Shown: in pieces, positions 9,758-62,856 of the stretch | Position numbering within the stretch: the first letter of the stretch is position 1 | How the letters are laid out: the number at the start of each line of letters is the position of its first letter | Assembly (NCBI GenBank): GCA_965204895.1 | Contig: OZ242025.1 | Location: 833,621 to 897,620, forward strand | Length of the DNA: 64,000 bases | From: Dehalococcoidia bacterium | GTDB taxonomy: Bacteria > Chloroflexota > Dehalococcoidia > Lucifugimonadales > UBA2985 | Direction of reading: 5' to 3' | The notes under the pieces: generated by a model | The model's database searches: none | What the model was told of the DNA's origin: nothing | The model's input: the letters and a program-made list of their open reading frames with translations, nothing else | Translations under genes and position numbers: made by a program

Positions 9758-11107
9758 ATGTTTGCCTTCCGAGTAGCAATCTATTTGCAGCGAACCGTTC
9801 ACCGGCTAGCGTGGATAGGTCTGTCGTGCTTGGTGGCTTCAGCATTGCTGTCAGCATGTGATGACGATCTCGTACCCACTACAACGCCTGTGCCTATTTC
9901 CATATCGCCCACTCACATCCTGGAGTGTTCTAACGGTGTCAGCGTGCCGGACCCTCATAACAACCCGGATTTAGTCAATGACTGTGCAATCCTGCTTGAG
10001 GCTCGGGATATTCTGAGCACTACCTCCACTTACAACACTTACGACCTGAACTGGAGCCCCGATATTCCCATCTCGCAGTGGAAAGGCGTTACCGTCGCTG
10101 CAGGCCGTGTCACAGGCATCGATTTGGAATCCTACGAAGTGTGGTGGGGAGATGTGGGGTTTGAGGTCACTCTTGGAGGGAGAATGCCGCCGACACTTGG
10201 CGGTCTCACCGGTCTGCGTTTTCTGAGATTCCGATGGACCGGATTGGAAGGGCCGATACCCGCTTCTCTCGGCAACCTCAAGAATCTGGAGGCTTTAGAT
10301 CTATGCGGCAACGAGTTTTCGGGGGAGATACCGACTTCGCTGGCGCGCCTCCGAAATCTCAAGGAACTAAGTCTATGCAGCGACCAGTTCAGTGAGATAC
10401 CACCTTCCATAGGAAGCCTCACCAACCTGGAGTCACTTGCTTTAAGCGGCACCGGGTTCACGGGCGAGATACCCTCTTCCTTAAGCAAACTCACGAACTT
10501 GAGAGCGCTCAGCTTGTTTTCCACCGGATTCACAGGCGAGATACCTTCTTTCCTGAGCGACCTCACCAAACTGAGGTATCTCAGCCTAACTCGTAACCCG
10601 CTTACAGGCGAGATACCTTCTTTCCTGGGCGACCTCACCGAACTGAGACATCTCGGCTTGGAGGACAACCAGTTCACGGGAGAGATACCCGCTTCCCTGG
10701 GCAACCTCACCAAACTGGAGCATCTCGATCTAGCGCAAAACCAGCTTACGGGAGAGATACCCGCTTCCCTAGGCGACCTCACCAAACTGGAGTGGCTCGA
10801 ACTAGAGCGCAACCAGCTTACGGGAGAGATACCTGCTTCCCTGGGCGACCTCACCAAACTGAGGTATCTCGATCTATCGCGCAACCAGCTTGCGGGACAG
10901 ATACCCGCTTCCCTGGGGAATGCCGGCAGCCTCTGGCATCTACGATTGAACTACAACCAGCTTACAGGACAGATACCCCATTCCCTAACTGAACTCTATA
11001 ACCTGGAACGGATGGCACTATACCCGAACCCACTGAGCGGGTGCGTGCCTGAATTTGAGAGCGTAAGGGATCACGATGCCATGCATTTTCACCTACCGGA
11101 CTGTTGA
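9758..11107 (+). CDS. Leucine-rich-repeat lipoprotein with plant-type 24-residue LRRs
   Basis: Lipobox LLSAC. About 12 repeats of LxxLxxLxLxxNxLTGEIPxSLGxLTK. The N-terminal cap LLEARDIL...LNWS...ISQWKGVTV..GRVTGIDL resembles LRRNT_2. Confidence 0.8.
   Translation: MFAFRVAIYLQRTVHRLAWIGLSCLVASALLSACDDDLVPTTTPVPISISPTHILECSNGVSVPDPHNNPDLVNDCAILLEARDILSTTSTYNTYDLNWSPDIPISQWKGVTVAAGRVTGIDLESYEVWWGDVGFEVTLGGRMPPTLGGLTGLRFLRFRWTGLEGPIPASLGNLKNLEALDLCGNEFSGEIPTSLARLRNLKELSLCSDQFSEIPPSIGSLTNLESLALSGTGFTGEIPSSLSKLTNLRALSLFSTGFTGEIPSFLSDLTKLRYLSLTRNPLTGEIPSFLGDLTELRHLGLEDNQFTGEIPASLGNLTKLEHLDLAQNQLTGEIPASLGDLTKLEWLELERNQLTGEIPASLGDLTKLRYLDLSRNQLAGQIPASLGNAGSLWHLRLNYNQLTGQIPHSLTELYNLERMALYPNPLSGCVPEFESVRDHDAMHFHLPDC
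10190..11063 (+). repeat. Tandem 72-bp (24-codon) coding repeats of the LRR protein
   Basis: Units such as aaccagcttacgggagagatacccgcttccctgggcgacctcaccaaactg recur with near nucleotide identity, most clearly at 10680-10960. Confidence 0.75.
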
Positions 11108-11135: not shown

Positions 11136-13610
11136 CTAAGGACTCAGTAGCCCCGTCTCTCTCAAATCCGGCGACCCCTCATCGTCGGGGTGGAGGCCGG
11201 GGGCCAGGCGGTCGGCGGCTATCCCCGAGATGACGCCTGCATTGCCGTCCAGGGTCTCCAGGAGAGAGGAAACGTACTCCTCCGCCGTCTCGGTGGGCAG
11301 CCTCACAAAGTAGTCAAAGAGCCGCATAGAGGACTCGGCCCCAAGCTCTCCTTCGGTCATCAGCTCCTCCCTCAGCTCCGCCAGGTTGGGGTCCTCCAGC
11401 ACCGCCAGCCACTGGAGCAGGTAGCCAAGCATGTGCTCGTCCAGCCCGTGGTTCAAGCGCCAGGACGCCAGCCGACGGCTGATGAAGACGTGGAACCCCT
11501 CGTAGTCCGGGTAGGCGAGGATTGTGGCGCCCGTTAGCTCCTCCAGCTTCAGCCAGAAGGCCCGCTCGAACTGCTGCGCCTGGGCCTCCCGGATGCCGCT
11601 CAGGGTGTGCCTGGAGGCCGTGCTTTCCGCAGGGGGTGGATAGCCGTGCCTCTGATGCACGTGGCCCATCTCATGGGCCAGGGACTGGATTACGTCGGCC
11701 AGGCCCCGCTCGGCGTCTATGGCCACCGTAGTCCTCCCGAAGCGAGGAACAGTTATCCCCACCGCCGTCGCCTTTATCCGCTCCCTCTGCTCAAAGAGGC
11801 GCGGGTACTCCGACTCCGGGCTGAGGGCGAACCTCTCCGCGAAGTAGCCGTCTATCCAGTCGTTGAACTGCGCCCTGTTGAAGAAGAGAATCTCCAGCCG
11901 CTCGTCGTGGAGGCTCTGGCCGGTCAGCAGGTAGTAGCCCGCGTCCACGACGTCCAGCGCCTCCCGGGAGTAGTCCAGCCCGCCTTCGGGGCTGATGGCC
12001 GGCTCCCGTATCTCAAGGAGCGACTCCAGGTCCGACAGCTTGAGCCGGAGGTCGTCTTCGCTGTAGACAATGGGGGCAGGCTCATCGGCCTCCTCCACGC
12101 TCCACACGAAGGTCTTCTCGTAGACGTTGTCGTCCTCGTTGGCCTCCACGACCGCGTTGTCCGGGTCAATCACCATCCGCAGGGTGTGTGGCCCCTCGTC
12201 GATTGTCACGTGGTCGGCAAGCCCGTCCCAGTCCTCGCTCCAGAGGAGGAGGTTGGAGGGCATTCTGCCGTGGAACTCAAAGGTCTGGACAAGGGTATCG
12301 TCGAAGTAGAGGTCTGCGGTGAAGGGCGCTGCGGCCTCCACGGTGCTGAGGTTGTGCACCGCCACGTCCACGTAGGGCGTCCTGCCGACGACCAGTGGAT
12401 CGTCCAGAAAAGTCCCCCGCTCGTGGGAGATGCTGATGGGCGCGTCCGAGTCCATCCTCCATCCGGGAGTGAGGTTGGGCAGCGTCAGAGGCGCGGGCGG
12501 AGTTGCGTCAGGCGTCGGCTCCTGAACGGGCATAGGCGCTACCGGCCCCGTGCCCCAGGTGAACTCCTTTTCTATGGTGTTGTTGCTCTCATCGGACTCC
12601 TCAACCGCGCCCGTGGCGTCCAGCACCACCCTGAGGGTATGGACGCCCGGCTCGACCCTGGTAACGCTCTGCAGCCTGTCCCACTCCGCGCTGCCGGTGG
12701 ACTCCTCCGCAATCAGCCCGTCCCCTTCCTGCACCGATATCAGGACATCGTCAAAGTACAGGTAGACCGTGACGTGCTCCCGGATGCTGGCGAGGCCCGT
12801 GTTCTGGAAGCCGTACCTGATATAGGTGGGCACGTCCACCGACAGGGGGCCGTCCGCCGCGTCTCCGGCGTAGGACGTGGCTATGAGCGAGTCTCCCCAG
12901 CCGAGAGGTATCGACGGGGCCAGGTCCGGCAGCTTGCCAGGCAGTGGGGTTGGCTCAGGCGCGGGGATGTCGGAGGGCAGCCAGGTGTACTCCAGCTCAT
13001 AAACGTTGTCTGACTCGTCCGTCTCCGGGACCAGGTTTGTGGAGTCAACCACCAGCTTCAGGGTGTGGGTACCGGGCCGGAGGCTCAACCGCCGTGGAAG
13101 CTCGTCCCAGTCGGTGAGGCTTATAAACAGGTTGGCCTCCAGGTTATTGGTAGTCCACCTCTCAACCAGAACGTCGTCCAGGTACACGTCTATGAAGAAG
13201 GGGTAGTCTATGGGGTTGGGACTGGCGTTGATCACCGCCCAGCTGAGGTAGGTGTCGCCATCCAGGGACAGAGGCGCGTCGCTGCGAGGCCCCGGCGCGC
13301 CCGCGGCCACCAGCGGGAGACGCCAGCCTACGGGGGTGAAGGGGACGACGTTGACGTTGGCCTTCCTGGCAGGCGTGGGCGCAAGCGTGGGGATGGACGT
13401 GGGCGGCGGGGTTGGCGTAGGTGTGGGTGTAGCGGTAGGCTCAAGGGTGGGTGAAGGCATCGGCGACGGGCTGGGCTCCGGGGTATCGGCGGGCGCGGCC
13501 CCCGGCCCGGGGCAGGCCGTCGCCAGCAGGGCGATTACCGCTATAATAAGTAGGAGTAGGTAGCGAGTCGTCATGGAAAAAGTGTAGCAGATACGTCTCA
13601 GCCTCAGCAT
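11136..13610 (-). CDS. Secreted lipoprotein with three CARDB-like modules and a C-terminal HExxH putative zinc-metallopeptidase domain
   Basis: Lipobox LLATAC and a PT-rich linker. Three ~130-aa modules end in DESDNVYELEYTW / ESDESNNTIEKEFTW / NEDDNVYEKTFVW. HEMGH is in SLAHEMGHVHQRHG. An alternative start is MTTRYLL at 13574. Confidence 0.6.
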   Translation of the reverse strand: MLRLRRICYTFSMTTRYLLLLIIAVIALLATACPGPGAAPADTPEPSPSPMPSPTLEPTATPTPTPTPPPTSIPTLAPTPARKANVNVVPFTPVGWRLPLVAAGAPGPRSDAPLSLDGDTYLSWAVINASPNPIDYPFFIDVYLDDVLVERWTTNNLEANLFISLTDWDELPRRLSLRPGTHTLKLVVDSTNLVPETDESDNVYELEYTWLPSDIPAPEPTPLPGKLPDLAPSIPLGWGDSLIATSYAGDAADGPLSVDVPTYIRYGFQNTGLASIREHVTVYLYFDDVLISVQEGDGLIAEESTGSAEWDRLQSVTRVEPGVHTLRVVLDATGAVEESDESNNTIEKEFTWGTGPVAPMPVQEPTPDATPPAPLTLPNLTPGWRMDSDAPISISHERGTFLDDPLVVGRTPYVDVAVHNLSTVEAAAPFTADLYFDDTLVQTFEFHGRMPSNLLLWSEDWDGLADHVTIDEGPHTLRMVIDPDNAVVEANEDDNVYEKTFVWSVEEADEPAPIVYSEDDLRLKLSDLESLLEIREPAISPEGGLDYSREALDVVDAGYYLLTGQSLHDERLEILFFNRAQFNDWIDGYFAERFALSPESEYPRLFEQRERIKATAVGITVPRFGRTTVAIDAERGLADVIQSLAHEMGHVHQRHGYPPPAESTASRHTLSGIREAQAQQFERAFWLKLEELTGATILAYPDYEGFHVFISRRLASWRLNHGLDEHMLGYLLQWLAVLEDPNLAELREELMTEGELGAESSMRLFDYFVRLPTETAEEYVSSLLETLDGNAGVISGIAADRLAPGLHPDDEGSPDLRETGLLSP

Positions 13611-13722: not shown

Positions 13723-14949
13723 TTGGCCAAATCCGTATTCTATTTCGCCCTTGGCATAGCGCTGGCCCTGGTCACCCTGGTTGTCATAGCCCTGGTGGTG
13801 ACCAACTTCACCGGCGACGACCCGGCGCCCGCACCGGCGCCTACGGCCACGCCCTCGGCTGCGGGGCCTGTCGGACCCGACACGCAGCCCGCGCCCACCG
13901 ATGCCCCTACCGCTACCGCGACTGCGCCGGACGCGCCCACGGCCCAACCGACCCCAACCTCAACGCCCTCGGTGAACATGGACCGCGACCTGCAAATCGT
14001 GACGCTCCTTCGCAAGGACGCCATACCGGCCATCCTGGAGCCGGAGTTCCTCACCATTGCCGAGGCCGACGGGCAGATGACGGAGGACGAGCTGGTCTTG
14101 GGCATATCCATCGAGGGGGACTCCCGGGCCTACTCCGTCAACATGCTCAGCAGGCACGAGATAGCCAACGACGTGGTGGGAGGCGTGCCCGTCGCCGTCA
14201 CCTGGTGACCCCTCTGCTTCTCGGGCATAGTTTATGCCCGTGAGTTCGGCGAAGAGACGCTGACCTTTGGCGTGTCCGGCAAGCTGGTGATGAACGCCCT
14301 GGTCATGTACGACCACCAGACGGACTCCCTGTGGAGCCACTTCACGGGAGACGCCATTGAGGGCGATTACCTGGGCACAAGGCTGGAGCTTGTTCCGTCA
14401 ACCCACACCACCTGGGGCAGGTGGAAGGAGCTGCACCCTGACACCCTGGCGCTGGACAAGGGCGGGCGATACAGCTACGACAACTACGCGTCCTACTACC
14501 GGAGGTCCGACGCCGGCGTCATTGGCGAGACCGTTATCGACGACCGTCTGGCCACCAAGGACCTGGTTGTGGGCCTGGTGATCGGCGGCGAAGCCAAGGC
14601 CTATGCCTTCGACGACCTGAGCGAGCAGCCCGTGGTCAATGACGCCGTGGGAGGCAGCAACGTGGTGGTCGTTTTCGACGCCGAATCCGAGACGGGCAAC
14701 GTCTTCAGCCGTGACGTGGACGGCCGCACCCTGGAGTTCCAACTGCTTGAGGACGACGGCTCAGGCGACCTGCTGATGGAGGACCTGGAGACGGGCACCC
14801 GGTGGCTGCTCCTCACGGGAGAGGCCGTTGACGGCCCACTTCAGGGGGCGCGGCTGGCGCAGGCGCCCTCCAACTACTCCTTCTGGTTTGCGTGGAAGGA
14901 CTGGCATCCCTCCACGGGCCTCTTCGTACGGGACGGCGCGGCCTCCTGA
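13723..14949 (+). CDS. DUF3179-family protein, predicted selenoprotein (UGA 14206-14208 read as Sec in a U-P-L-C motif); TM anchor plus PT/A-rich linker
   Basis: ORFs 13723..14208 and 14272..14949 are in one frame. Read-through gives GGVPVAVTW-U-PLCFSGIVYAREFGEETLTFGVSGKLVMNALVMYDHQTDSLWSHFTG, a continuous DUF3179 domain. A hairpin lies 13 nt after the UGA. Confidence 0.75.
14206..14240 (+). promoter_or_regulatory. In-frame UGA plus candidate bacterial SECIS hairpin
   Basis: UGA at 14206-14208. Stem cgggcata (14222-14229) pairs with tatgcccg (14233-14240), loop GUU. The loop G at 14230 is 22 nt after the A of the UGA. Confidence 0.65.
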
Positions 14950-15034: not shown

Positions 15035-16288
15035 ATGATTTGGCGAATAAGACCTTGGGAGAGGTATATCCGTATGACAATGGTGAAGGCTCGTGGACTT
15101 GCCGTTGGCCTGACGATGACGTCGGGGCTGGCGCTGCTCGCCGCCGGATGCAGCGAGCCAGTCGTCACGCCCACGCCGACGTCCGAGCCAACCTCCACGC
15201 CCCAGGCCAGCGCCACTCCCGCACCCGTGCCCACCGCCACCCCATTCCCCCTGTCGGACACCGGCAGGGTTACCAGGGATGAGCTTGTCGCCAGGCTGCA
15301 GACCGCCGTAGTGAGGGACGGCATCCCGGCCATTCTGGACCCACACTTCGTGCCGCCGGAGTCGGTGCCGCCGGAGTTCAGGGACACGGAGCTTGTCATG
15401 GGGATGTCGCTGAACGGCCAGAGCAAGGCCTACCCGATAGCTATACTCAGCCATCACGAGATAGTCAACGACGTGGTGGGAGGTGTGCCCGTCGCCGTCA
15501 CGTGGTGACCGCTGTGTTACTCGGGCATAGTTTATGCCCGCCAGTTCGGGGAGGAGACGCTGACCTTTGGAGTGTCCGGCAAGCTGAGCATGAACGCTAT
15601 GATAATGTACGACCACCAGACGGACTCCCTGTGGGCCCACTTCACGGGTGAGGCCATCACGGGCGACTACGAGGGCACACAGCTGGAGGTGCTGCCCGTT
15701 ATGCAGACCACTTGGGGCCACTGGCGGGAGCTTCACCCAGACTCCCAGGTGCTGGCGTGGAGGATGCCCACCAATGAGGACCCCACCGGCGCGCTGGGCT
15801 TCACCTACGACCCGTACCTGGGCTACTACGCCAGCGGCTGGGTCGGCTACGGGCGCACCCGGGAGGACAACCGCCTGGAGCAGAAGGACTTTGTGCTGGG
15901 CCTGGTGCTGAACGACGAGTCCATGGCCTACCCCTTCAACAACCTTGTGGACCACCCCGTCGTCAACGACTCTGTGGGAGGTAGGGATGTGGTCATCACC
16001 TACGAGCCGGTGTCGGATACGGGGGGAGTCTTCTCTCGCAAGGTGGACGGCCGCCCCCTCACCTTCAACATCCTGGAGGAGGACGGCGCAGACGGCCTGA
16101 TTATGGTCGACGAGGAGACCGGCAGCCGGTGGCTGCTCCTGGCGGCGGAGGCCGTGGAGGGCCCGCTCAAGGGAACCAGGCTTGAGCAGCTTCCCGCGTT
16201 CTACTCCTACTGGTTCGCATGGGCTGACTGGAATCCCACTACCGGCCTGTTCCTCCGGGAGGGCGTCCAAGAGGGCGTCTCTCCGTAG
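15035..16288 (+). CDS. DUF3179-family lipoprotein, predicted selenoprotein (UGA 15506-15508 read as Sec, U-P-L-C)
   Basis: ORFs 15035..15508 and 15572..16288 are in one frame. Read-through gives GGVPVAVTW-U-PLCYSGIVYARQFGEETLTFGVSGKLSMN. Lipobox LLAAGC and a PT-rich linker. The true start may be an internal Met (15074 or 15080). Confidence 0.75.
15506..15540 (+). promoter_or_regulatory. In-frame UGA plus candidate bacterial SECIS hairpin
   Basis: UGA at 15506-15508. Identical hairpin cgggcata-gtt-tatgcccg at 15522-15540, with the loop G at 15530 (22 nt after the UGA). The 13-nt spacer differs from the paralogue at synonymous sites. Confidence 0.65.
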
Positions 16289-24669: not shown

Positions 24670-25866
24670 ATGACTACAGAGAAAGCTCCCCTCCCCGACT
24701 CCCTGGGCCACTTTGGGCCTTACGGCGGCCGCTTTGTGCCGGAGACCCTGATGTCGGCGCTGGAGGAGCTTGAGAGGGAGTACGCTGCCTCCCGGGAGTC
24801 CCACCTCTTTCAAAATCGGCTCTCGGACTACAACGCCAACTACGCCGGAAGGCCAACGCCCCTGTACTTCGCCCGCAACCTGTCGGCCCAGTTCGGCGGC
24901 GCTCGCATCTACCTGAAGCGGGAGGACCTGACCCACACGGGCGCCCACAAGATCAACAACGCCCTGGGCCAGGCGCTGCTGGCACAGCACATGGGCAAGC
25001 GGCGCATCATTGCCGAGACGGGCGCAGGGCAGCACGGCGTTGCAACGGCCACCGCCTGCGCAATGCTGGGGCTGGAGTGCGTGGTGTACATGGGTGAGGA
25101 GGACATGCGGCGACAGGCCATCAACGTCTACCGCATGAGGCTGCTGGGAGCGGAGGTGAGGGCCGTGACGGCGGGGAGCCGCACCCTGAAGGACGCCATC
25201 AACGAGGCCATCCGCGACTGGGTGACCAACGTGGAGACCACCCACTACCTGCTGGGCAGCGTCGTGGGGCCGCACCCGTACCCCATGATGGTGCGGGACT
25301 TCCAGTCGGTCATCGGCGTGGAGGCGCGCCGGCAGATGCTGGAGGCGGAGGGCCGCCTGCCCGACTACGCCGTTGCGTGCGTCGGTGGCGGCAGCAACTC
25401 GATGGGCCTCTTCTACCCCTTCATCAACGACACCGAGGTCAAGCTGGTGGGCGTAGAGGCCGGCGGCAGCGGCGTCGACACCGGGAGCCACGCGTCCACT
25501 CTCGTCGCCGGAAGGCCCGGCGTGCTTCACGGCTCCATGTCCTACCTGCTCCAGGACGAGCACGGCCAGGTGAAGGAGACCCACAGCATCTCCGCGGGCC
25601 TGGACTACCCCGGCGTTGGCCCGGAGCACAGCCACCTGAAGGACACGGAGCGGGCGGAGTACACCGCCGTCACCGACTCCCAGGCCCTTGAGGGCTTCCA
25701 CCTGCTATCACGCGCCGAGGGCATCATCCCCGCCCTGGAGCCGGCCCACGCCATCTACTACGTCAGCCAGCTGGCCCCAACGCTGCCCCAGGACGCGATT
25801 GTCCTGGTCTGCCTCAGCGGCCGCGGCGACAAGGACGTGGACACGGTGGCGCGGCTGGGGGAGTAG
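24670..25866 (+). CDS. trpB: Tryptophan synthase beta chain
   Basis: [32 protein letters not shown] (PLP lysine), and [12 protein letters not shown]. Confidence 0.97.
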
Positions 25867-55979: not shown

Positions 55980-57065
55980 CTAGTTGAACATCAGGACGGA
56001 GCGGGCAACCTCCCCGGCCTTCATCGCGCGGAAGGCCTCGTTCACGTCCTCCAGGCGGCCCCGGCGGGTGATCATCTCGTCCAGCAGCAGGCGGCCCTGT
56101 CTATAGAAGTCAATGAGCCGGGGCATGTCCGTGCGGAACCGGTTGGAGCCCATGCCGCTGCCCTGTATCTTCCGCTCGCTGAGGAACATCCGCCCCTCAA
56201 TCTCCACCTTGTGCCCCTGGGGGATGATGCCTATGACTGTCGCCGTGCCCCCGGGCGTCAGGCAGTAGAAGCACTGCTCGGCGGCGGTCTTTGAGCCAAT
56301 GGCCTCAAAGGAGTAGTCCGCTCCGCCGCCGGTGAGGTTCTGGATGGCCTCCACGGGGTCCTGGGACGATGCGTCCACCACGTGGGTTGCGCCCATGTCC
56401 AGGGCATACTTGAGCTTGGGTTCCACGACGTCGACGGCGATGATCTGCCGCGCTCCGGCTATACGCGCGCCCTGCACGGCTGAGAGGCCGACGCCCCCCA
56501 GGCCGAACACGGCGACGGTGCATCCGGGCTCAATCTTGGCGGTGTTGATGACCGCCCCCACGCCGGTGATGACGCCGCAGCCGATGAGGGCGGCGCAGTC
56601 AAGCGGCATGTCGTCGTCGATCTTGACCAGGGCGTTCTCGTGGACCAGCATTCGCTCAGCAAAGCTGGAGAGGTTGAAGACCTGGTTGACTGTGTCGCCG
56701 CTTGCAGCAAAGCTGAGGCGCGGCGGGTCCGACTCTGCGCGTCGTGGTCGCTGGGAGCAACGGTTGGGGTGGCCGGTGAGGCACTGGTGGCACGTCCCGC
56801 AGAAGACGGACAGGCATGAGATGACGTGGTCGCCGGGCTTGAGGTAGGTGACCTGGTCGCCAACGGCCTCAACAACGCCGGCTGCCTCGTGGCCCAGGAT
56901 GGCCGGAGGCGTGGTGTTGGATATTCCGTCCAGGTAGTGGAGGTCGCTGTGGCACACGCCGCTGGCGGCCGTGCGGACAACCACCTCCCTGGGCATGGGG
57001 CTGTCGAAGTTGACCTCTTCAATGGTCAGAGGAGTGTGCGCCGCGTGAAAAACTGCTGCCTTCAT
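55980..57065 (-). CDS. Zinc-dependent alcohol dehydrogenase family oxidoreductase
   Basis: MKAAVFHAAHTPLTIEEV, GVCHSDLH, GHEAAGVVEAVG, structural-Zn Cys cluster CGTCHQCLTGHPNRC, and NAD motif VFGLGGVGL. Only the last 361 codons of the 829-aa ORF 55980..58469 are coding. Confidence 0.88.
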   Translation of the reverse strand: MKAAVFHAAHTPLTIEEVNFDSPMPREVVVRTAASGVCHSDLHYLDGISNTTPPAILGHEAAGVVEAVGDQVTYLKPGDHVISCLSVFCGTCHQCLTGHPNRCSQRPRRAESDPPRLSFAASGDTVNQVFNLSSFAERMLVHENALVKIDDDMPLDCAALIGCGVITGVGAVINTAKIEPGCTVAVFGLGGVGLSAVQGARIAGARQIIAVDVVEPKLKYALDMGATHVVDASSQDPVEAIQNLTGGGADYSFEAIGSKTAAEQCFYCLTPGGTATVIGIIPQGHKVEIEGRMFLSERKIQGSGMGSNRFRTDMPRLIDFYRQGRLLLDEMITRRGRLEDVNEAFRAMKAGEVARSVLMFN

Positions 57066-57133
57066 TGCACTCCTTCCATAGGGGGAAAGTTTCAGGACAT
57101 TATAGCACGGCGCAAGCGGGATTCCATCAGCTA

Positions 57134-58453
57134 CTAGGCTGTCCCGGCGGCAAGCTGTTGCCCTTCGGCCCCAACCTTCTCGGGCGGCTTTGGGGGCACG
57201 GCCGCGAGCATCAGGAGGCCGCAGAGTATCCAGGCAGACCCGAAGATGAGGAATGACAGGTCGTAGTTGCCGTAGCGGTCCCACATGTAACCTCCAAGCA
57301 AAGGACTGGCGGCGCCCATCATGTTGCCCACCGGCGTCACGAAGCCCCGGATAGAGCCCTGGTTCTGCCGCCCGAAGTAGGAGGCCCAGGCCACGTTGGC
57401 AATGGTGGGCCATCCGCCCATTGTGAGGCCGTGGAACACGGCGTAGACGTACAGCATTGTCATATTCTCGGCCACTACCAGAGCGAACAGCGACACTCCC
57501 GCCGGTATGACGCACATTGGAATCACCCATCGCACGTGGATGCGCTCCGCCACGAACCCCCACAACGGCTTGGCAACTATGGCGAAGAAGGCTACGGTCG
57601 TTGCCACGGCCGTGGCTGTTGCCAGGTTGAAGTCCTTGTCCTGGACGTAGGCCACCTGGTGGAAGATGACGGGCATGAGGCCCATGCTGCCCAGGGACTG
57701 CACGCCCATCATTATCCAGAGGGCTCTGGTCCTGAACGCCTCTCGGACGGTCCAGGGATACTCGTCGACGGCTGCTCCGCGGCCCGCTCTGCCCCCGGCT
57801 CCCTCGGGCGCGTCGCCGTCCGGCAGAAGGCCGATGTCCTCCGGCTGTCGTCGCATGAACAGCGCCGCCATAGGCGTTATGGCCACCATCATGAATATGC
57901 CAAGAAACACCCAAGCCGTGCGCCACCCGAATTCGCCCACAAACCACCCGGCCATTGGCGCGATGATGAAGCCGCCGGTGGATATGCCCATAGTGCCGAT
58001 GGCCATGGCCCGGCCGCGCTTCCTGATGAACCACTTGGAAATGACGGCCGGCCCCACCAGCTGGCCGCCCATGGCGAACATGGCCAGCCCGAAAATGACG
58101 CCGTACAGCAGATAGAAGTGCCACAGATCCTGCACCAGGGAGGTGGATATGAGCACCACGCCCGAGATTATGCTGCCTACGGTCACCAGCAGCCGGGGGC
58201 CGTGCTTTCTGTCCACCAGCACCCCCAGGAAGGGGAGCAGGGGGAGGAGCGCGAGGCGGAACACCGCAATGGCCGAGAACTCCGTCCGGGAGATGCCCAG
58301 GTCCTCGCTCATTGGGACAATGAAGAAGGACAGGCCGTAGCCGCTTATGCCCGCGGTGGTCATAGCAGTGGTGAAGGTTATGAGGACAATCAGCCAGCCG
58401 TAGAAGAACGGCCTGCCTATGACTTTGCTTGCTACCCAGTCGGCGCTTGCCAT
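57134..58453 (-). CDS. MFS transporter
   Basis: 439 aa with about 12 TM segments and the MFS loop motif GVLVDRKHGPR. Confidence 0.8.
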   Translation of the reverse strand: MASADWVASKVIGRPFFYGWLIVLITFTTAMTTAGISGYGLSFFIVPMSEDLGISRTEFSAIAVFRLALLPLLPFLGVLVDRKHGPRLLVTVGSIISGVVLISTSLVQDLWHFYLLYGVIFGLAMFAMGGQLVGPAVISKWFIRKRGRAMAIGTMGISTGGFIIAPMAGWFVGEFGWRTAWVFLGIFMMVAITPMAALFMRRQPEDIGLLPDGDAPEGAGGRAGRGAAVDEYPWTVREAFRTRALWIMMGVQSLGSMGLMPVIFHQVAYVQDKDFNLATATAVATTVAFFAIVAKPLWGFVAERIHVRWVIPMCVIPAGVSLFALVVAENMTMLYVYAVFHGLTMGGWPTIANVAWASYFGRQNQGSIRGFVTPVGNMMGAASPLLGGYMWDRYGNYDLSFLIFGSAWILCGLLMLAAVPPKPPEKVGAEGQQLAAGTA

Positions 58454-58765
58454 TGGACCTCGCAGTCAAATTGCATGAGCCAATGATACGCCAAGAGGAT
58501 AGGGCGGGAAAGGGGGCAGAACTGGTGCATTGGGAAGACAGGCCTTCGAAGCCGAGCTAGAATTGCGAGAGCAAATCTGAATCCCTTCTTGCTATTTCCC
58601 CATTCCTTCTCTGACTACGCCTTGCTACGGTGTTGGCCCGGCATGCTGGAAGAGTTTTCGCCCGGAAGCATGATATTATTTGTTTTCATCGGTATCCAGT
58701 TTGGATTTACTAGGTTGCCGTTAGGTTCGGGGACTTAGGCGAAATCCAGCATGGGGAGGTAAATT

Positions 58766-60181: not shown

Positions 60182-60196
60182 CTCAACAGTCGCGGG

Positions 60197-61549
60197 TCAG
60201 TTGCGCAGCTGGGCCAGGATTGAGGAAACGGAGGTCCTGTGGCTAGTGCTGCCCACGAACTTCCACTTGATGATCCCCTCCGCGTCGATAACGAAAGTGG
60301 ACGGAGTGGCGCGTCCTCCGTCGCTGGGGTTGTGTACCTCGTATAACCTGGTCACTTCCGCTGAGGGGTCGTAGAGCACCGGGAAGGGGATACCCACCTG
60401 CCGCGCAATGTCCTCAGCACCGCTCAGGTTGTCCACGCTTATGGCTACCACCTCAGCGTTCAGAGCCTGTATGTCGTTGTATCTACTTGTCAGCTCTACG
60501 AGCTGAGCGCGGCAGTAAGTTCACCAGAATGCCCGGTAGAAGACCACCACCACCATCTTGTCGCCACGGTAAGACTCCAGGGAAACGTCCGACTCTGAGA
60601 TGGACGGCAGCGTGAAGAGTGGAGCCAGATTGCCTACGTCAGTACCTACCGGTATTGGGACTTCCGTGGGCACAGGTGTTGCCGTAGGCGCGGGCGTCGC
60701 GGTCGGCTGTGGAGTGACCGTTGGCACTGGAGTAGCAGTTGGCAGGATAGTTGCTGTCGGCACAGGAGTAGCGGTGGGCTCCGGGAGCGCCGTGGGCCAA
60801 GAGGTAGCGGTCGGCTCTACGGTCGTCAAGCTGGACAGATGCTCCTTGATGGTGGAAAGGGCGGGCCGATCGCCCGCGGACGTGCCTACGTACTTCCACC
60901 TGATAACGCCCTCCGCGTCGATGATGAACATTGACGGGGTTGCAAGGCCGTCGTCCAGGAGGTCGTAGACTGTGTACGACCGGGTCACCTCTGTTGAGGC
61001 GTCGTACAGGACGGGGAAGGTGACCCGCCACTCGCCCACGACGGTGAGGGCGTCCTGGAGGTCGTTCACGCTTACGGCCAGGATTTCGGCGTTGAGCGCC
61101 TTGATGTCCTCGTGGGCCTCTGTCAGCTCAACGAGCTGATCATGGCAGAACCCTCAGAAGGAGCCTCTGTAGTAGACCAGCACCACGCTCTTGTCGCCCC
61201 GGTAGGACTCCAGGGACACGTCCGTCCCGGAGGCGGAGGGCAGGGTGAAGCCGGGGGCCATGTCCCCGACCTCCGCGCTGGGCGGCGCTTCCGGCTCAGG
61301 GGTTGGGGTGGGAGGCTGGGTGGCGGTAGGCGCGGGCGTCTCCCGGGGCTCCGGCGTGGGTGTTGGGGCCGCCGTTGGCTGGGGCACAGCCGTTGCGGTG
61401 GGCGCCGGTGTGGGGCTTGGGGCCGTGGTCGCGGTCGGCTCCTCGGAGCCGCACGCCACCGCCGTCGCTATCGAGATGATGCCTATGGCGAGCCAAAGAA
61501 CTGCTTTGCGCATACGTCTATGATACCCTATAGCGTCCGTCCGCCTCAA
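60197..61549 (-). CDS. Tandem two-domain AhpC/TSA (Prx-like/redoxin) lipoprotein, predicted selenoprotein with two Sec codons (U-G-F-C and U-T-Y-C)
   Basis: ORFs 61154..61549, 60521..61069 and 60197..60451 are one frame. Read-through gives VVLVYYRGSF-U-GFCHDQLVELT and VVVVFYRAFW-U-TYCRAQLVELT. Lipobox TAVACG, with PT linkers before each domain. The probable start is ATG 61513. Confidence 0.75.
60490..60523 (-). promoter_or_regulatory. In-frame UGA (60521-60523) plus candidate SECIS hairpin, second redoxin domain
   Basis: On the minus strand: UGA, a 14-nt spacer, then tcagctc-gta-gagctga (60506..60490). The loop G at 60499 is 22 nt after the A of the UGA. Confidence 0.65.
61123..61156 (-). 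promoter_or_regulatory. In-frame UGA (61154-61156) plus candidate SECIS hairpin, first redoxin domain
   Basis: On the minus strand: UGA, a 14-nt spacer, then tcagctc-gtt-gagctga (61139..61123). The loop G at 61132 is 22 nt after the A of the UGA. Confidence 0.65.
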
Positions 61550-61564: not shown

Positions 61565-62856
61565 GGTAGTGTAACTTAGAGTGTGTAAATTGATGAGAAG
61601 GGGCGTATCCTGAATCAGGGTTTAGTGCAAGGCCTGAAAGGAGGACACGCCCATGGTGCAGGTCAGGGACCTGACAGAATTGACGATAGCTGATAGGTGG
61701 AGGGAGGTCAAGGGAGAGGAGGAGTGGTGGGGAGACATCAAGGAACAGGCGCTGAGAGGTGTGAAGAGGTTGTTGGAGGGGGCGATGGAGGGAGAACTGA
61801 TAGAGCAGTTGAACGCTGGGAGGTACAGGCGAACAGAGTCTCGGCGGGGTTACCGCAACGGCTACCGGTATCGCAGCCTGCTAACGGAGTTGGGGATGGT
61901 GGAGCGTCTAAGGGTGCCCCGTGACCGGGACGGAGCCTACCGGACGGAGGTGTTGCCTAGATACCAGAGGCGACAGGAGAGGGTGAATAATGCAGTACGG
62001 GCGATGTTCCTGACAGGGGTGAGCACTCGGAAGGTGCAGGAGTTGGTAGGACCCATGCTGGGAGCGTCGGTCAGCGCCCAGACTGTCTCACGAATTGCTC
62101 GCAGCCTGGACGGAGAGGTGCGTCGTTACCAGAGCCGTACTCTGACAGACTCCTACCTCTACTTGCTGCTGGACGGCATCGTCCTCAGGGTGAAGGAGGC
62201 TAACAGGGTGGTCAGGCGCCTGGTATTGTGTGCCTATGGCATTACACCGGCCGGGTTCAGGGAGATGATATCATTCCGCCAGGCGAACTCTGAGAGTGAA
62301 GCTGCATGGGAGGCCTTCCTCAGAGACCTATACGACAGGGGGCTTAATGGCAAGTCTCTCAACATGATCAGCACCGATGGTTGCCCTGGGCTTCATAGCG
62401 CTTTGGGCACAGTATATCCCTATGTCACCAGACAGAGGTGCTGGGCTCACAAGATGCGCAACGTAGCCTCCAAGCTACCCCGTAAGCTTCAGGACACTTG
62501 CCTCACTGAGGCCAAGACCATCTACCAGGCTCACACCCGAAGGGAGGCTGTACTCCGCTTCCGCCGGTGGGCAGCGCGCTGGCGCAGCACTGCACCCAAA
62601 GCTGTAAAGTGCATAGAGGACGACCTAGACGAACTCTTGCCCTTCCTCGACTGTCCTAAGGCCCATTGGAAGAAGATACGGACTACCAACGCTATCGAGA
62701 GAGCTTTCAGGGAAGTACGACGTAGAACAAGGCCTATGAGCTGCTTCCAGAATACTGCCAGTGTAGACAGAATCATCTTCGGCGTAATCAGTCACTTGAA
62801 TAACAATTGGAAAGATAATCCCCTTCCGCATTTTACACACAACTCTTGACACTACC
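61565..62856 (+). mobile_element. IS256-family insertion sequence (1292 bp), intact
   Basis: Terminal imperfect inverted repeats GGTAGTGTaActtAGaGTGTGTAAAtTGatGAGAAGGGG (left) and, reverse-complemented on the right, GGTAGTGTcAagAGttGTGTGTAAAaTGcGGAAGGGG. Single mutator-type transposase ORF and 8-bp TSD. Confidence 0.9.
61653..62849 (+). CDS. IS256-family (mutator-type) transposase
   Basis: RRGYRNGYRYRSLLTELGMVERLRVPRDRDGAYRTEVLPRYQRRQE, YLYLLLDGI, ISTDGCPGL, QRCWAHKMRNV and IRTTNAIERAFREVRRR (DDE region). Confidence 0.95.
   Translation: MVQVRDLTELTIADRWREVKGEEEWWGDIKEQALRGVKRLLEGAMEGELIEQLNAGRYRRTESRRGYRNGYRYRSLLTELGMVERLRVPRDRDGAYRTEVLPRYQRRQERVNNAVRAMFLTGVSTRKVQELVGPMLGASVSAQTVSRIARSLDGEVRRYQSRTLTDSYLYLLLDGIVLRVKEANRVVRRLVLCAYGITPAGFREMISFRQANSESEAAWEAFLRDLYDRGLNGKSLNMISTDGCPGLHSALGTVYPYVTRQRCWAHKMRNVASKLPRKLQDTCLTEAKTIYQAHTRREAVLRFRRWAARWRSTAPKAVKCIEDDLDELLPFLDCPKAHWKKIRTTNAIERAFREVRRRTRPMSCFQNTASVDRIIFGVISHLNNNWKDNPLPHFTHNS

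What the first reader, a model, noticed from the sequence alone, without database searches (positions are those of the whole stretch)
60197..61549. One polypeptide with two AhpC/TSA-type redoxin domains, each with Sec replacing the first Cys of CxxC (two UGA codons in one gene)
On the minus strand, the three listed ORFs 61154..61549, 60521..61069 and 60197..60451 are contiguous in one frame, separated only by TGA codons. Translation across them gives ...SVVLVYYRGSF-U-GFCHDQLVELTEAHEDIKALNAEILAVSVND... and ...KMVVVVFYRAFW-U-TYCRAQLVELTSRYNDIQALNAEVVAISVDN.... These are the classic F-Y-R-x-x-W/F-C-x-x-C redoxin active-site contexts. The middle ORF contains the C-terminus of domain 1, a PT-rich linker and the N-terminus of domain 2, so this is one lipoprotein (lipobox TAVACG) with tandem thioredoxin-fold domains. 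Sec-containing Prx-like/AhpC-TSA oxidoreductases are an established selenoprotein class. A tandem fusion needing two Sec insertions per chain, exported and tethered by PT linkers, is less ordinary. It lies in the same window as two more candidate selenoproteins.
Basis: partly seen in the sequence, partly recalled or inferred. Interest (0 to 1): 0.8.

Follow-up and report, generated by a model that had tools for sequence, protein, structure and literature searches.

The report
Two-selenocysteine tandem redoxin lipoprotein gene
This is one real gene for a membrane-anchored, exported protein with two redox domains that each need a selenocysteine read from a UGA codon; it is a fused, multi-selenocysteine form of a known selenoprotein type that is very common in Dehalococcoidia bacteria and is split into fragments in public gene calls.

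Summary
Window 60197-61513 (- strand) is one 438-codon reading frame. It is interrupted only by TGA at 61154-61156 and 60521-60523. It encodes signal peptide plus lipobox, a Pro/Thr linker, AhpC-TSA/Redoxin domain 1 (F-U-GFC), a second linker, and domain 2 (W-U-TYC).

Each TGA is followed 14 nt later by a 7-bp hairpin with a G-starting triloop. The hairpin shows compensatory changes across 144 homologous sites. Of 1,933 TGA triplets in the window, only four have this hairpin: these two and two in DUF3179 genes with a TW-U-PLC motif.

In 80 species-level Dehalococcoidia/Chloroflexota genomes, 167 motif sites were found and all use TGA. Forms with one, two and three domains occur, and nearly all are lipoproteins. 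Cys homologues exist, including a tandem Cys/Cys lipoprotein.

Sec aligns with the attacking Cys of ResA-type CxxC and with the conserved Thr of peroxiredoxins. The peroxiredoxin Pro, Thr and Arg are absent. It is therefore a Prx-like UxxC thiol:disulfide oxidoreductase, a known predicted selenoprotein family, and not a true peroxiredoxin.

The repeated-module, multi-Sec lipoprotein architecture is a new variant. The substrate is unknown, and Sec machinery genes were not found because only the window was available.

The parts
60197..61513 (-). Complete coding sequence of the double-selenocysteine lipoprotein: 438 codons plus a TGA stop, with Sec at residues 120 and 331. An alternative upstream TTG start lies at 61549.
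   Evidence: One frame without TAA or TAG. Pfam finds two AhpC-TSA/Redoxin domains across the TGAs. Orthologues with the same architecture are L001-L003, L004, L006, L013, L015 and L034.
61451..61513 (-). Signal peptide with lipobox (MRKAVLWLAIGIISIATAVAC; Cys21 is the predicted lipidated residue).
   Evidence: Read directly from the sequence. The same n-region, hydrophobic region and [LVA][AV][AG]C-G pattern occurs at the N-terminus of nearly all family members. No dedicated signal-peptide predictor was available.
61280..61450 (-). Pro/Thr-rich linker 1 (residues 22-78).
   Evidence: Sequence composition. Linkers of variable length are present in all relatives.
60833..61279 (-). Redoxin domain 1, of the F-U-G-F-C type (residues 79-227).
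   Evidence: Pfam Redoxin stretch 82-214. It is 96% identical to L015 domain 1 and 77-84% identical to domain 1 of the three-domain proteins in L004 and L006.
61154..61156 (-). UGA codon 1, read as selenocysteine 120 (YYRGSF-U-GFC).
   Evidence: In-frame TGA inside a Pfam domain. The homologous codon is TGA in all related genomes examined. Cys occupies this column in more distant homologues.
61123..61139 (-). SECIS-like hairpin 1: UCAGCUC-GUU-GAGCUGA. The stem starts 14 nt after the UGA and is encoded by the QLVEL codons.
   Evidence: Covariation in alignment A3. It is one of only 4 of 1,933 TGA triplets in the window with this geometry.
60647..60832 (-). Pro/Thr-rich linker 2 (residues 228-289).
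60200..60646 (-). Redoxin domain 2, of the W-U-T-Y-C type (residues 290-438).
   Evidence: Pfam AhpC-TSA stretch 293-417. It is 75% identical to domain 3 of L004. It aligns with M. tuberculosis AhpE and with ResA.
60521..60523 (-). UGA codon 2, read as selenocysteine 331 (FYRAFW-U-TYC).
   Evidence: Same evidence as for UGA 1.
60490..60506 (-). SECIS-like hairpin 2: UCAGCUC-GUA-GAGCUGA, in the same register as hairpin 1.
60197..60199 (-). Genuine stop codon, also TGA, with no hairpin in register.
   Evidence: The hairpin descriptor does not hit this TGA, so UGA decoding in this gene depends on context.

Best explanation
The three ORFs are one gene. Shown or strongly supported: the ribosome reads through UGA 120 and UGA 331 as selenocysteine, because each is followed, 14 nt downstream and inside the coding sequence, by its own bacterial-type SECIS hairpin (a 7-bp stem with a G-starting triloop). 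Each redoxin module therefore carries its own recoding signal. That is why modules can be duplicated, fused or lost, and why relatives with one, two or three Sec exist.

Inferred from sequence pattern: the product is exported through a lipoprotein signal peptide, lipid-anchored at Cys21 on the outer face of the membrane, and carries two thioredoxin-fold modules on flexible Pro/Thr tethers.

Inferred from homology: each module has a U-x-x-C redox centre built like the CxxC centre of extracytoplasmic thiol-disulfide oxidoreductases such as ResA and TlpA, although the scaffold is most similar to AhpC/TSA. Sec takes the place of the attacking N-terminal Cys, the Cys three residues later resolves, and a Thr-Pro aligns with the cis-Pro loop.

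Most likely mechanism (inferred): the selenolate attacks an oxidised substrate at the cell surface, such as a disulfide or sulfenylated or peroxidised target. This forms an intramolecular selenenylsulfide with the +3 Cys, which an unidentified thiol donor then re-reduces. The substrate and the electron donor are unknown.
For: Single frame with a domain spanning each TGA.

Same architecture elsewhere: 16 clusters of fragments run from the C-terminus of domain 1 through the linker to '...FYRAFW'. Read-through translations of L001-L003, L004, L006, L013, L015, L034 and L071 confirm it.

Family-wide TGA: 167 active-site motif sites in 80 Dehalococcoidia/Chloroflexota/SAR202 genomes all use TGA.

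Cys homologues: P0165 (FYRAFWCTNC), the tandem Cys/Cys lipoprotein P0194, and the FYRGxWCPxC proteins.

Hairpin: 91% of cells are paired over 144 sites. Pair 21-31 is GC 86 / AU 45 / GU 10, through synonymous CAG/CAA and CUG/UUG changes. Pair 18-34 is GC 100 / UA 17 / AU 2. None of 500 shuffles reached the observed values, and shifted registers gave 16-46% pairing.

Specificity: only 4 of 1,933 TGA triplets in the window have a 7/7 stem in this register plus G25. These are the two TGAs here and two in DUF3179 genes with TW-U-PLC. The background in related loci is 7 of about 14,230.

Cys controls: three of four Cys-type sites have only 3-4 of 7 pairs, against 6-7 of 7 in 134 of 144 Sec sites.

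Active-site alignment: against AhpE, U falls on Thr42 and the retained C on the peroxidatic Cys45.

Lipoboxes occur in nearly all family members.

Lineage uses Sec: Dehalococcoidia MAGs with 46-49 selenoproteins are listed in BSepDB, which includes only species possessing SelA, SelB and SelD (PMC13326102).
Against: No selA, selB, selD or tRNA-Sec gene is in the window or in any fetched locus, so the machinery is inferred for this genome and not shown.

Folding 62 nt downstream of each UGA on its own is no more stable than shuffled sequence (z = -0.78 and +0.18). The support for the hairpin comes from conservation, covariation and register, not from thermodynamics.

The stem is encoded by a conserved QL-x-EL peptide, so part of its conservation is protein-level.

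No CcdA/DsbD-type electron donor or other functionally telling neighbour is conserved within 3 kb.

No curated NCBIfam model accepts the domains.

There is no experimental or expression evidence.
Confidence: 0.8

Rival explanations
1. The gene and the Sec decoding are as described, but the modules work as glutathione-peroxidase-like peroxidases. Sec is oxidised by H2O2 or organic hydroperoxides to a selenenic acid, which the +3 Cys resolves. The protein would be a cell-surface antioxidant, not a disulfide reductase.
For: The best Pfam, NCBIfam and PDB similarities are to peroxiredoxins: AhpC-TSA at E = 2e-63 and M. tuberculosis AhpE at E = 1e-12. Sec occupies the first position of the motif, as in GPx-type UxxT (motif table in PMC13188914). 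From general knowledge, a selenolate does not need the Prx Thr/Arg activation.
Against: The defining Prx residues Pro, Thr and Arg are replaced. The UxxC motif plus a cis-Pro-like Thr-Pro is the signature of disulfide oxidoreductases. All peroxiredoxin NCBIfam models score far below their cut-offs.
Confidence: 0.3
2. The TGAs are ordinary stops. The locus would then be three separate small genes, or a decayed pseudogene of a former tandem Cys gene.
For: Automatic gene callers split it this way in public records (P0069 and P0085). The gene's own terminator is also TGA. An IS256-family transposase sits 140 bp upstream.
Against: The fragments after each TGA are half-domains without signal peptides or starts at conserved positions. 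The TGA falls at exactly the active-site column in 167 of 167 sites across 80 genomes, with protein conservation on both sides. A covarying hairpin follows in fixed register. No frameshifts or other stops occur.
Confidence: 0.02
3. UGA is read through at these sites by something other than Sec-tRNA, for example near-cognate Trp or Cys insertion or a suppressor tRNA. The product would then be a W-x-x-C or C-x-x-C protein.
For: One database homologue has Trp (FFRGHF-W-GIC, P0166) and some have Ser at this column. No tRNA-Sec was found in the sequence available.
Against: UGA also terminates this and many neighbouring genes, so decoding is context-specific. The context is a SECIS-type hairpin shared with an unrelated UxxC family, DUF3179, in the same window. 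The position is the catalytic nucleophile, where Cys homologues occur. The lineage is documented as rich in selenoproteins (PMC13326102).
Confidence: 0.03

Closest known systems
Prx-like thiol:disulfide oxidoreductase selenoproteins (PF00578, UxxC/UxxU; 'Prx-like 1' of the Sargasso and GOS surveys)
   Same: Same Pfam domain, same UxxC motif with Sec in the first position, Cys homologues are abundant, and the function is likewise only predicted (PMC2398784, PMC9312934, PMC13188914).
   Different: The described members are treated as single-domain proteins with 1 Sec, or 2 in UxxU. Here two modules (three in relatives) are repeated in one chain, each with its own UGA and SECIS. The modules are joined by Pro/Thr tethers and preceded by a lipoprotein signal. 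I found no description of this architecture in the papers searched.
ResA / TlpA / CcmG-type extracytoplasmic thiol-disulfide oxidoreductases
   Same: Exported and membrane-tethered thioredoxin-fold proteins. The W-C-x-x-C centre aligns residue for residue with W-U-x-x-C, and the cis-Pro loop aligns with the Thr-Pro.
   Different: Sequence similarity is weak (26% identity; NCBIfam ResA 56 bits against a cut-off of 170). The scaffold is closer to AhpC/TSA. No cytochrome-maturation or CcdA genes lie nearby. Sec replaces Cys.
Peroxiredoxins (AhpE, BCP/PrxQ, AhpC), including the Sec-containing Prx (TxxU)
   Same: These are the best structural and sequence relatives (AhpE at E = 1e-12). The retained Cys lies on the peroxidatic-Cys column.
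   Different: The catalytic Pro, Thr and Arg are replaced by Arg, Sec and Pro. In Sec-containing Prx the Sec is the peroxidatic residue (TxxU), whereas here Sec is at the other end of the motif (UxxC).
Catalogued bacterial double and triple selenoproteins (for example MbdU, methyltransferase/UXPK-star, arsenite methyltransferase/AhpD fusion) and the Rcas_1661 thioredoxin-like selenolipoprotein family
   Same: They show that bacteria tolerate 2-3 UGA-Sec codons per gene and that Chloroflexota export selenolipoproteins (PMC13188914; NCBIfam names).
   Different: Those are fusions of unlike domains, or have two Sec in one site. Here the same catalytic module with its SECIS is iterated. The NCBIfam scores for those models are negligible (26 bits against a cut-off of 190).
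Eukaryotic SelL and NCBIfam 'SelL-related redox protein' (NF040769)
   Same: It is the best NCBIfam hit and a Prx-like fold with a Sec redox motif.
   Different: Each domain scores 61-65 bits against a cut-off of 120, and only the first 100 of 173 profile positions match.

Membership tests
Bacterial selenoprotein gene (UGA-Sec with in-frame SECIS) | An in-frame UGA at a position conserved among orthologues, with protein conservation on both sides. | tested here: met
   TGA at all 167 active-site motif sites in 80 genomes. Pfam domains span the TGA.
Bacterial selenoprotein gene (UGA-Sec with in-frame SECIS) | Homologues carry Cys at the Sec column. | tested here: met
   P0165, P0160, P0176, P0181, P0183, P0194 (tandem Cys/Cys), P0206 and P0212.
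Bacterial selenoprotein gene (UGA-Sec with in-frame SECIS) | A stem-loop a short fixed distance downstream of the UGA, with G at the start of the apical loop, supported by covariation. | tested here: met
   A 7-bp stem at nt 18-34 from the UGA with a G(U/G)N triloop. 91% of cells are paired, compensatory GC/AU changes occur at two pairs, and 0 of 500 shuffles reach the observed values. Only 4 of 1,933 TGA triplets in the window fit, all at UxxC sites. Single-sequence folding z-scores are not significant. No dedicated bSECIS predictor was available, and Rfam gave no hit.
Bacterial selenoprotein gene (UGA-Sec with in-frame SECIS) | The genome encodes SelA, SelB, SelD and tRNA-Sec. | not testable with these tools
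   None is in the 64-kb window or in the fetched loci. The rest of the 2.44-Mb source contig could not be read. Lineage-level support comes only from BSepDB (PMC13326102), and from SelA/SelB COGs in sponge symbiont bins (PMC5649159).
Prx-like thiol:disulfide oxidoreductase selenoprotein family (PF00578, UxxC) | An AhpC-TSA (PF00578) domain. | tested here: met
   E = 2.3e-63 and 212 bits against a cut-off of 26, in two stretches.
Prx-like thiol:disulfide oxidoreductase selenoprotein family (PF00578, UxxC) | A U-x-x-C motif at the redox centre. | tested here: met
   UGFC and UTYC. The family definition is taken from PMC9312934 and PMC13188914.
Peroxiredoxin (PxxxTxxC...R active site) | Cys on the peroxidatic column. 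| tested here: met
   The retained Cys (+3 from Sec) aligns with Cys45 of AhpE.
Peroxiredoxin (PxxxTxxC...R active site) | The conserved Pro, Thr and Arg that activate the peroxidatic Cys. | tested here: not met
   In the alignment to AhpE, Pro is replaced by Arg, Thr42 by Sec, and the GIANRGTF Arg by Pro. The identity of the AhpE catalytic residues is from general knowledge.
ResA/TlpA/CcmG-type extracytoplasmic thiol-disulfide oxidoreductase | A CxxC centre plus a cis-Pro loop in a thioredoxin fold, on an exported or tethered protein. | tested here: met
ResA structures hit at E = 1e-8. A signal peptide and lipobox are present.
ResA/TlpA/CcmG-type extracytoplasmic thiol-disulfide oxidoreductase | Passes the curated family score, and lies in a CcdA/DsbD or cytochrome-maturation gene context. 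| tested here: not met
   NCBIfam ResA scores 56.6 bits against a cut-off of 170, and DsbE and TlpA score far below their cut-offs. No such neighbour recurs within 3 kb in 80 loci.
NCBIfam NF040769 SelL-related redox protein | A whole-protein score of at least 120 bits. | tested here: not met
   61-65 bits per domain, and 116 bits for the two domains summed. Only profile positions 3-101 of 173 match.
Bacterial lipoprotein | An N-terminal signal peptide ending in a lipobox with an invariant Cys. | tested here: met
   MRKAVLWLAIGIISIATAVAC|GSEE. The same pattern occurs in nearly all family members. This is a pattern match only: no SignalP/LipoP-type tool was available, and Lgt and LspA were not sought.

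The most novel reading that the evidence does not exclude
The fused modules may not be redundant copies. They could form a tethered extracellular selenol relay, in which one 'F-U-G-[FI]-C' type module and one or two 'W-U-x-x-C' type modules pass reducing equivalents to each other.

Two observations point this way. The same module types occur as conserved three-gene arrays in SAR202-type genomes and as in-frame fusions in the window's clade, which is a Rosetta-stone pattern. The modules are also gained and lost together with their private SECIS.

If so, Dehalococcoidia/SAR202 would carry a previously unrecognised, selenium-intensive cell-surface redox system, with several Sec per chain and several chains per genome, alongside exported DUF3179 selenolipoproteins. 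This would be relevant to selenium demand in the ocean and in sponge symbionts.
Probability: 0.15. Interest if true: 0.7.

Novelty: new variant of a known kind. Interest (0 to 1): 0.45.

Why it matters
First, it is a clean natural example of how bacterial multi-Sec proteins can arise. The SECIS lies inside the module's own coding sequence, so duplicating or fusing a module copies the recoding signal with it. Relatives with one, two and three Sec units show this process in action.

Second, the family is large in Dehalococcoidia and SAR202, with 516 tblastn-confirmed relatives and TGA in every one of the 80 inspected. Yet gene callers split it into fragments, and no curated NCBIfam model accepts it. 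Selenoproteome counts and surface-proteome annotations for this abundant marine lineage are therefore underestimated.

Third, exported, lipid-anchored selenoproteins on long Pro/Thr tethers point to selenium-based redox chemistry outside the cell. The yield of full-length protein must depend on two or three successive recoding events, and therefore on selenium supply.

Tried and rejected
- **Rfam scan of the window:** only tRNAs were found, and no SECIS family.
- **tRNA-Sec:** ARAGORN found none in the window or in any fetched locus.
- **Sec machinery in the window:** about 45 ORFs were scanned with Pfam or NCBIfam. No SelA, SelB or SelD was found.
- **A candidate SelD:** an AIRS/AIRS_C gene lies 3 kb from the orthologue in L002/L084. 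Its translation looks like thiamine-monophosphate kinase and has no split N-terminus, so I rejected it (this was judged by eye from the sequence, not by a family scan).
- **Single-sequence RNA folding:** the regions downstream of the UGAs gave z-scores of -0.78 and +0.18, which is uninformative. I relied on covariation and register instead.
- **Source contig:** an exact look-up of the window's own fragment P0085 was not on record. Cluster look-up gave only 'NCBI+ENA, 2,443,739-bp contig' with no accession.
- **HMMER representative search with a U-to-C sequence:** I used the 106 residues after UGA2 instead.
- **Neighbourhood clustering of 80 loci:** the only recurrent neighbours are lineage-specific housekeeping genes (MBL-fold hydrolase, aminotransferase, MFS transporter, SDR, NAPRTase). 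There was no CcdA/DsbD, Msr or cytochrome-maturation gene (these labels were assigned by eye from the sequences or from the, 49 tables).
- **First full-length protein search:** it was swamped by Pro/Thr-linker matches to unrelated proteins.
- **The two 398-aa ORFs** (24670-25866 and 61653-62849): these are not copies of one insertion sequence, because blastn finds no match.
- **BSepDB supplements:** none are held, so I could not check whether this protein is already listed there.
Full report
**1. Observation**

Translating window 60194-61549 on the minus strand gives a single frame with no TAA or TAG and only two internal TGA codons. These lie at 61154-61156 and 60521-60523. The gene ends with a third TGA at 60197-60199.

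The likely start is ATG 61513, which gives a 438-residue product with Sec at positions 120 and 331. With U replaced by C, Pfam finds two AhpC-TSA/Redoxin domains (E = 2.3e-63), and each spans one TGA. The two domains are 55% identical to each other.

The N-terminus, MRKAVLWLAIGIISIATAVAC|GSEE, has the form of a lipoprotein signal peptide. Pro/Thr-rich stretches of about 57 and 62 residues precede each domain.

**2. The split is not an error or a pseudogene**

A protein search returned 16 clusters of 241-263-residue fragments. Each starts inside the C-terminal half of a first redoxin domain, runs through a PT linker, and ends at '...VVVFYRAFW', which is the residue before the second TGA. Reading their contigs through the TGAs gives the same layout: lipoprotein, PT linker, domain(U), PT linker, domain(U).

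A scan of one genome per species found 516 relatives. The best 80 are all Dehalococcoidia, Chloroflexota or SAR202 MAGs, and many are complete long-read chromosomes. In these loci the motif search found 168 matches. One was spurious, and the other 167 active-site occurrences ([FY]R..[FW]-X-x-x-C) all have TGA at X and none has Cys.

In-frame fusions occur with two domains (L003, L013, L015, L034, L001/L002) and with three domains and three Sec (L004, L006, L071). L061 has the same three-domain layout but carries one extra in-frame TGA in its linker, so I do not count it among the clean triples. Many SAR202-type loci instead carry three adjacent separate genes, each with its own lipobox and one Sec. 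Nearly every family member starts with a signal peptide and lipobox.

**3. Cys homologues**

An exhaustive HMMER search with the 106 residues after UGA2 mostly returned about 100-residue post-UGA fragments. It also returned full-length proteins with Cys at the Sec column:
- P0165, a lipoprotein with FYRAFWCTNC;
- P0194, a 390-residue lipoprotein with two tandem Cys/Cys domains;
- P0176, P0206, and the widespread FYRGxWCP[FY]C proteins.

A few homologues have Ser or Trp at that column.

**4. Recoding signal**

Both window TGAs are followed, 14 nt later, by UCAGCUC-GUN-GAGCUGA. On its own each 62-nt stretch folds no better than shuffled sequence (z = -0.78 and +0.18), so I used comparative evidence.

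Across 144 distinct homologous sites, 91% of cells pair in this register, against 16-46% in shifted registers. Pair 21-31 is GC in 86 sites, AU in 45 and GU in 10, produced by synonymous CAG/CAA and CUG/UUG codon pairs. The closing pair 18-34 switches between GC (100) and UA/AU (19). None of 500 column shuffles reached the observed pairing or covariation.

I then applied a bare descriptor: 7 of 7 pairs at nt 18-24/28-34 plus G at nt 25. Applied to all 1,933 TGA triplets on both strands of the window, it picks exactly four. These are the two TGAs here and two in-frame TGAs in paralogous DUF3179 genes. The same descriptor hits 7 of about 14,230 non-motif TGAs in the related loci.

As a control, three of four Cys-type sites from more distant homologues keep only 3-4 of the 7 pairs. 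The fourth, L088, keeps all 7 and looks like a recent Sec-to-Cys conversion. By comparison, 134 of 144 Sec sites have 6-7 pairs.

The geometry is a short spacer, a stem, and G(U) at the start of the apical loop a little over 20 nt from the UGA. From my own knowledge of the E. coli fdhF element, this matches the bacterial SECIS. No dedicated bSECIS predictor was available, and Rfam has no hit.

**5. Sec machinery**

No tRNA-Sec, selA, selB or selD lies in the window or in the fetched loci. A nearby AIRS-domain gene in a relative looks like ThiL, not SelD. I could not read the rest of the source contig, which is 2,443,739 bp and held in NCBI and ENA.

The support is therefore indirect:
- four UGA-plus-hairpin sites in three genes of two unrelated UxxC families within 64 kb;
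- family-wide conservation of the TGA;
- published listings of Dehalococcoidia MAGs with 46-49 selenoprotein genes among species possessing SelA, SelB and SelD (PMC13326102);
- SelA and SelB COGs common in sponge-symbiont bins (PMC5649159).

**6. What the domains are**

The best solved relative is M. tuberculosis AhpE, a 1-Cys peroxiredoxin (E = 1e-12). ResA and other thioredoxin-family proteins hit at about 1e-8 to 1e-12.

The AhpE alignment puts VFYRAFW-U-TYC against VFFPLAF-T-GIC. Sec falls on the conserved Thr of the Prx TxxC motif, and the retained Cys falls on the peroxidatic Cys. The Prx Pro is Arg here, and the Prx Arg (GIANRGTF) is Pro (ATPSTF).

The redox centre is therefore built like a CxxC thiol-disulfide oxidoreductase, with Sec as the attacking residue, on an AhpC/TSA-like scaffold.

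This matches the predicted selenoprotein family 'Prx-like thiol:disulfide oxidoreductase' (PF00578, UxxC/UxxU), known since the Sargasso and GOS surveys (PMC1088965, PMC2398784, PMC9312934, PMC13188914). No curated NCBIfam model accepts it. The best, 'SelL-related redox protein', gives 61-65 bits per domain against a cut-off of 120.

**7. How it probably works**

- *Shown or strongly supported:* one mRNA, two SECIS-directed Sec insertions, and context-dependent UGA decoding. The gene's own stop is a UGA without the hairpin.
- *Inferred from sequence pattern:* export, lipidation at Cys21, and two catalytic modules on flexible tethers at the outer face of the membrane.
- *Inferred from homology:* selenolate attack on an oxidised substrate, formation of a Se-S bond with the +3 Cys, and re-reduction by an unknown donor.

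Whether the physiological substrate is a protein disulfide (my preference, because of UxxC plus the cis-Pro-like loop and the loss of the Prx triad) or a peroxide (the rival, because of the Prx-like scaffold and the GPx-like placement of Sec) cannot be decided here. Gene neighbourhoods give no help: apart from paralogous redoxin genes, the recurrent neighbours differ between clades, and no CcdA/DsbD-type gene recurs.

**8. Evolution of the architecture**

Window domain 1 is orthologous to domain 1 of L015 (96%), L006 (84%) and L004 (77%). Window domain 2 is closest to domain 3 of L004 (75%). The window protein therefore corresponds to the three-domain protein without its middle module.

In L003 the two domains are 83% identical, and in L071 domains 2 and 3 are 79% identical. 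These point to separate recent duplications. Modules are thus gained and lost together with their private UGA and SECIS.

In the window's clade, the first module is always the 'F-U-G-[FI]-C' type and the following ones the 'W-U-x-x-C' type. Both types also occur as separate neighbouring genes in SAR202-type arrays. This is compatible with a functional partnership but does not prove one.

**9. Novelty and verdict**

The following are all already known:
- the selenoprotein family;
- UxxC chemistry;
- bacterial proteins with 2-3 Sec;
- selenolipoproteins in Chloroflexota;
- the selenoprotein richness of Dehalococcoidia (PMC13188914, PMC13326102; NCBIfam names).

In the papers searched I did not find a description of iteration of one Sec-plus-SECIS module two or three times in a tethered lipoprotein, nor of the size of this family in Dehalococcoidia and SAR202. 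BSepDB may nevertheless contain these genes. I could not check, because its supplements are not held.

I rate it a real, well-supported finding and a new variant of a known kind, of moderate interest.

Noticed in passing
window 13723-14949 (+), TGA at 14206-14208: A DUF3179 gene is split by an in-frame TGA at the motif VAVTW-U-PLC. The TGA is followed by an 8-bp hairpin, CGGGCAUA-GUU-UAUGCCCG, in the same register as the redoxin hairpins. The N-terminus is hydrophobic and followed by a Pro/Thr/Ala-rich linker. This is a second candidate selenoprotein family in the window.
   Followed up: partly
window 15035-16288 (+), TGA at 15506-15508: A paralogous DUF3179 gene, this one with a clear lipobox (LLAAGC|SEP) and a PT linker. 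It has the same TW-U-PLC motif and an identical hairpin. Together with the target gene this makes three exported selenoprotein genes and four Sec codons in 64 kb.
   Followed up: partly
L004 1612-3456, L006 1609-3453, L071 2155-4257: Close relatives encode three-domain, three-Sec versions (about 600-700 residues) of the same lipoprotein. The window's protein looks like the L004/L006 form without the middle module.
   Followed up: yes
L059-L083 (for example L059 2263-4643): SAR202-type genomes carry a conserved array of three adjacent separate lipoprotein genes. Each has one Sec, and the types are W-U-PYC, W-U-GFC/PSC and F-U-GIC. This is the unfused counterpart of the tandem proteins.
   Followed up: partly
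L088 452-898 (P0206): A Cys-containing homologue (FFCGIC, codon TGT) still has the complete 7-bp hairpin. It looks like a fossil SECIS left after a recent Sec-to-Cys change.
   Followed up: partly
L061, in-frame TGA in the PT linker between domains 2 and 3 (protein context TPT-U-SLFDDD): An extra in-frame TGA lies outside any redox motif and has no obvious hairpin. It may be a real stop separating two genes, an assembly error, or something else.
   Followed up: no
P0166, P0148, P0171, P0205: Some homologues have Trp (FFRGHF-W-GIC) or Ser (W-S-EYC, W-S-SYC, H-S-PPC) at the Sec/Cys column. The Trp case is one base away from TGA.
   Followed up: no
window 61653-62849 (+): An IS256-family transposase gene (NCBIfam 344 bits) starts 140 bp upstream of the selenoprotein gene and is transcribed divergently. 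It could affect the gene's promoter. The synteny seen in relatives, where NAPRTase lies upstream, is absent here.
   Followed up: partly
window 55980-58469 (-): In this 829-codon ORF only residues 470-828 match zinc alcohol dehydrogenases. The N-terminal 469 residues matched no NCBIfam family. The ORF may be an over-extended call in GC-rich DNA, or a fusion.
   Followed up: no
window 9758-11107 (+) and 11136-13610 (-): A leucine-rich-repeat protein and a CARDB-domain protein lie next to the DUF3179 selenoprotein genes. Several related MAG names suggest sponge metagenomes. Eukaryote-like repeat proteins would fit a host-associated lifestyle; this is my own reading and was not tested.
   Followed up: no
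L084 5883-6461 and L003 388-1026: In relatives, a CMD/AhpD-like gene and NAPRTase sit just upstream of the tandem redoxin gene on the opposite strand. Pairing of Prx-like and AhpD-like selenoprotein genes has been reported in metagenomes (PMC2398784). I did not check whether this AhpD-like gene contains Sec.
   Followed up: no
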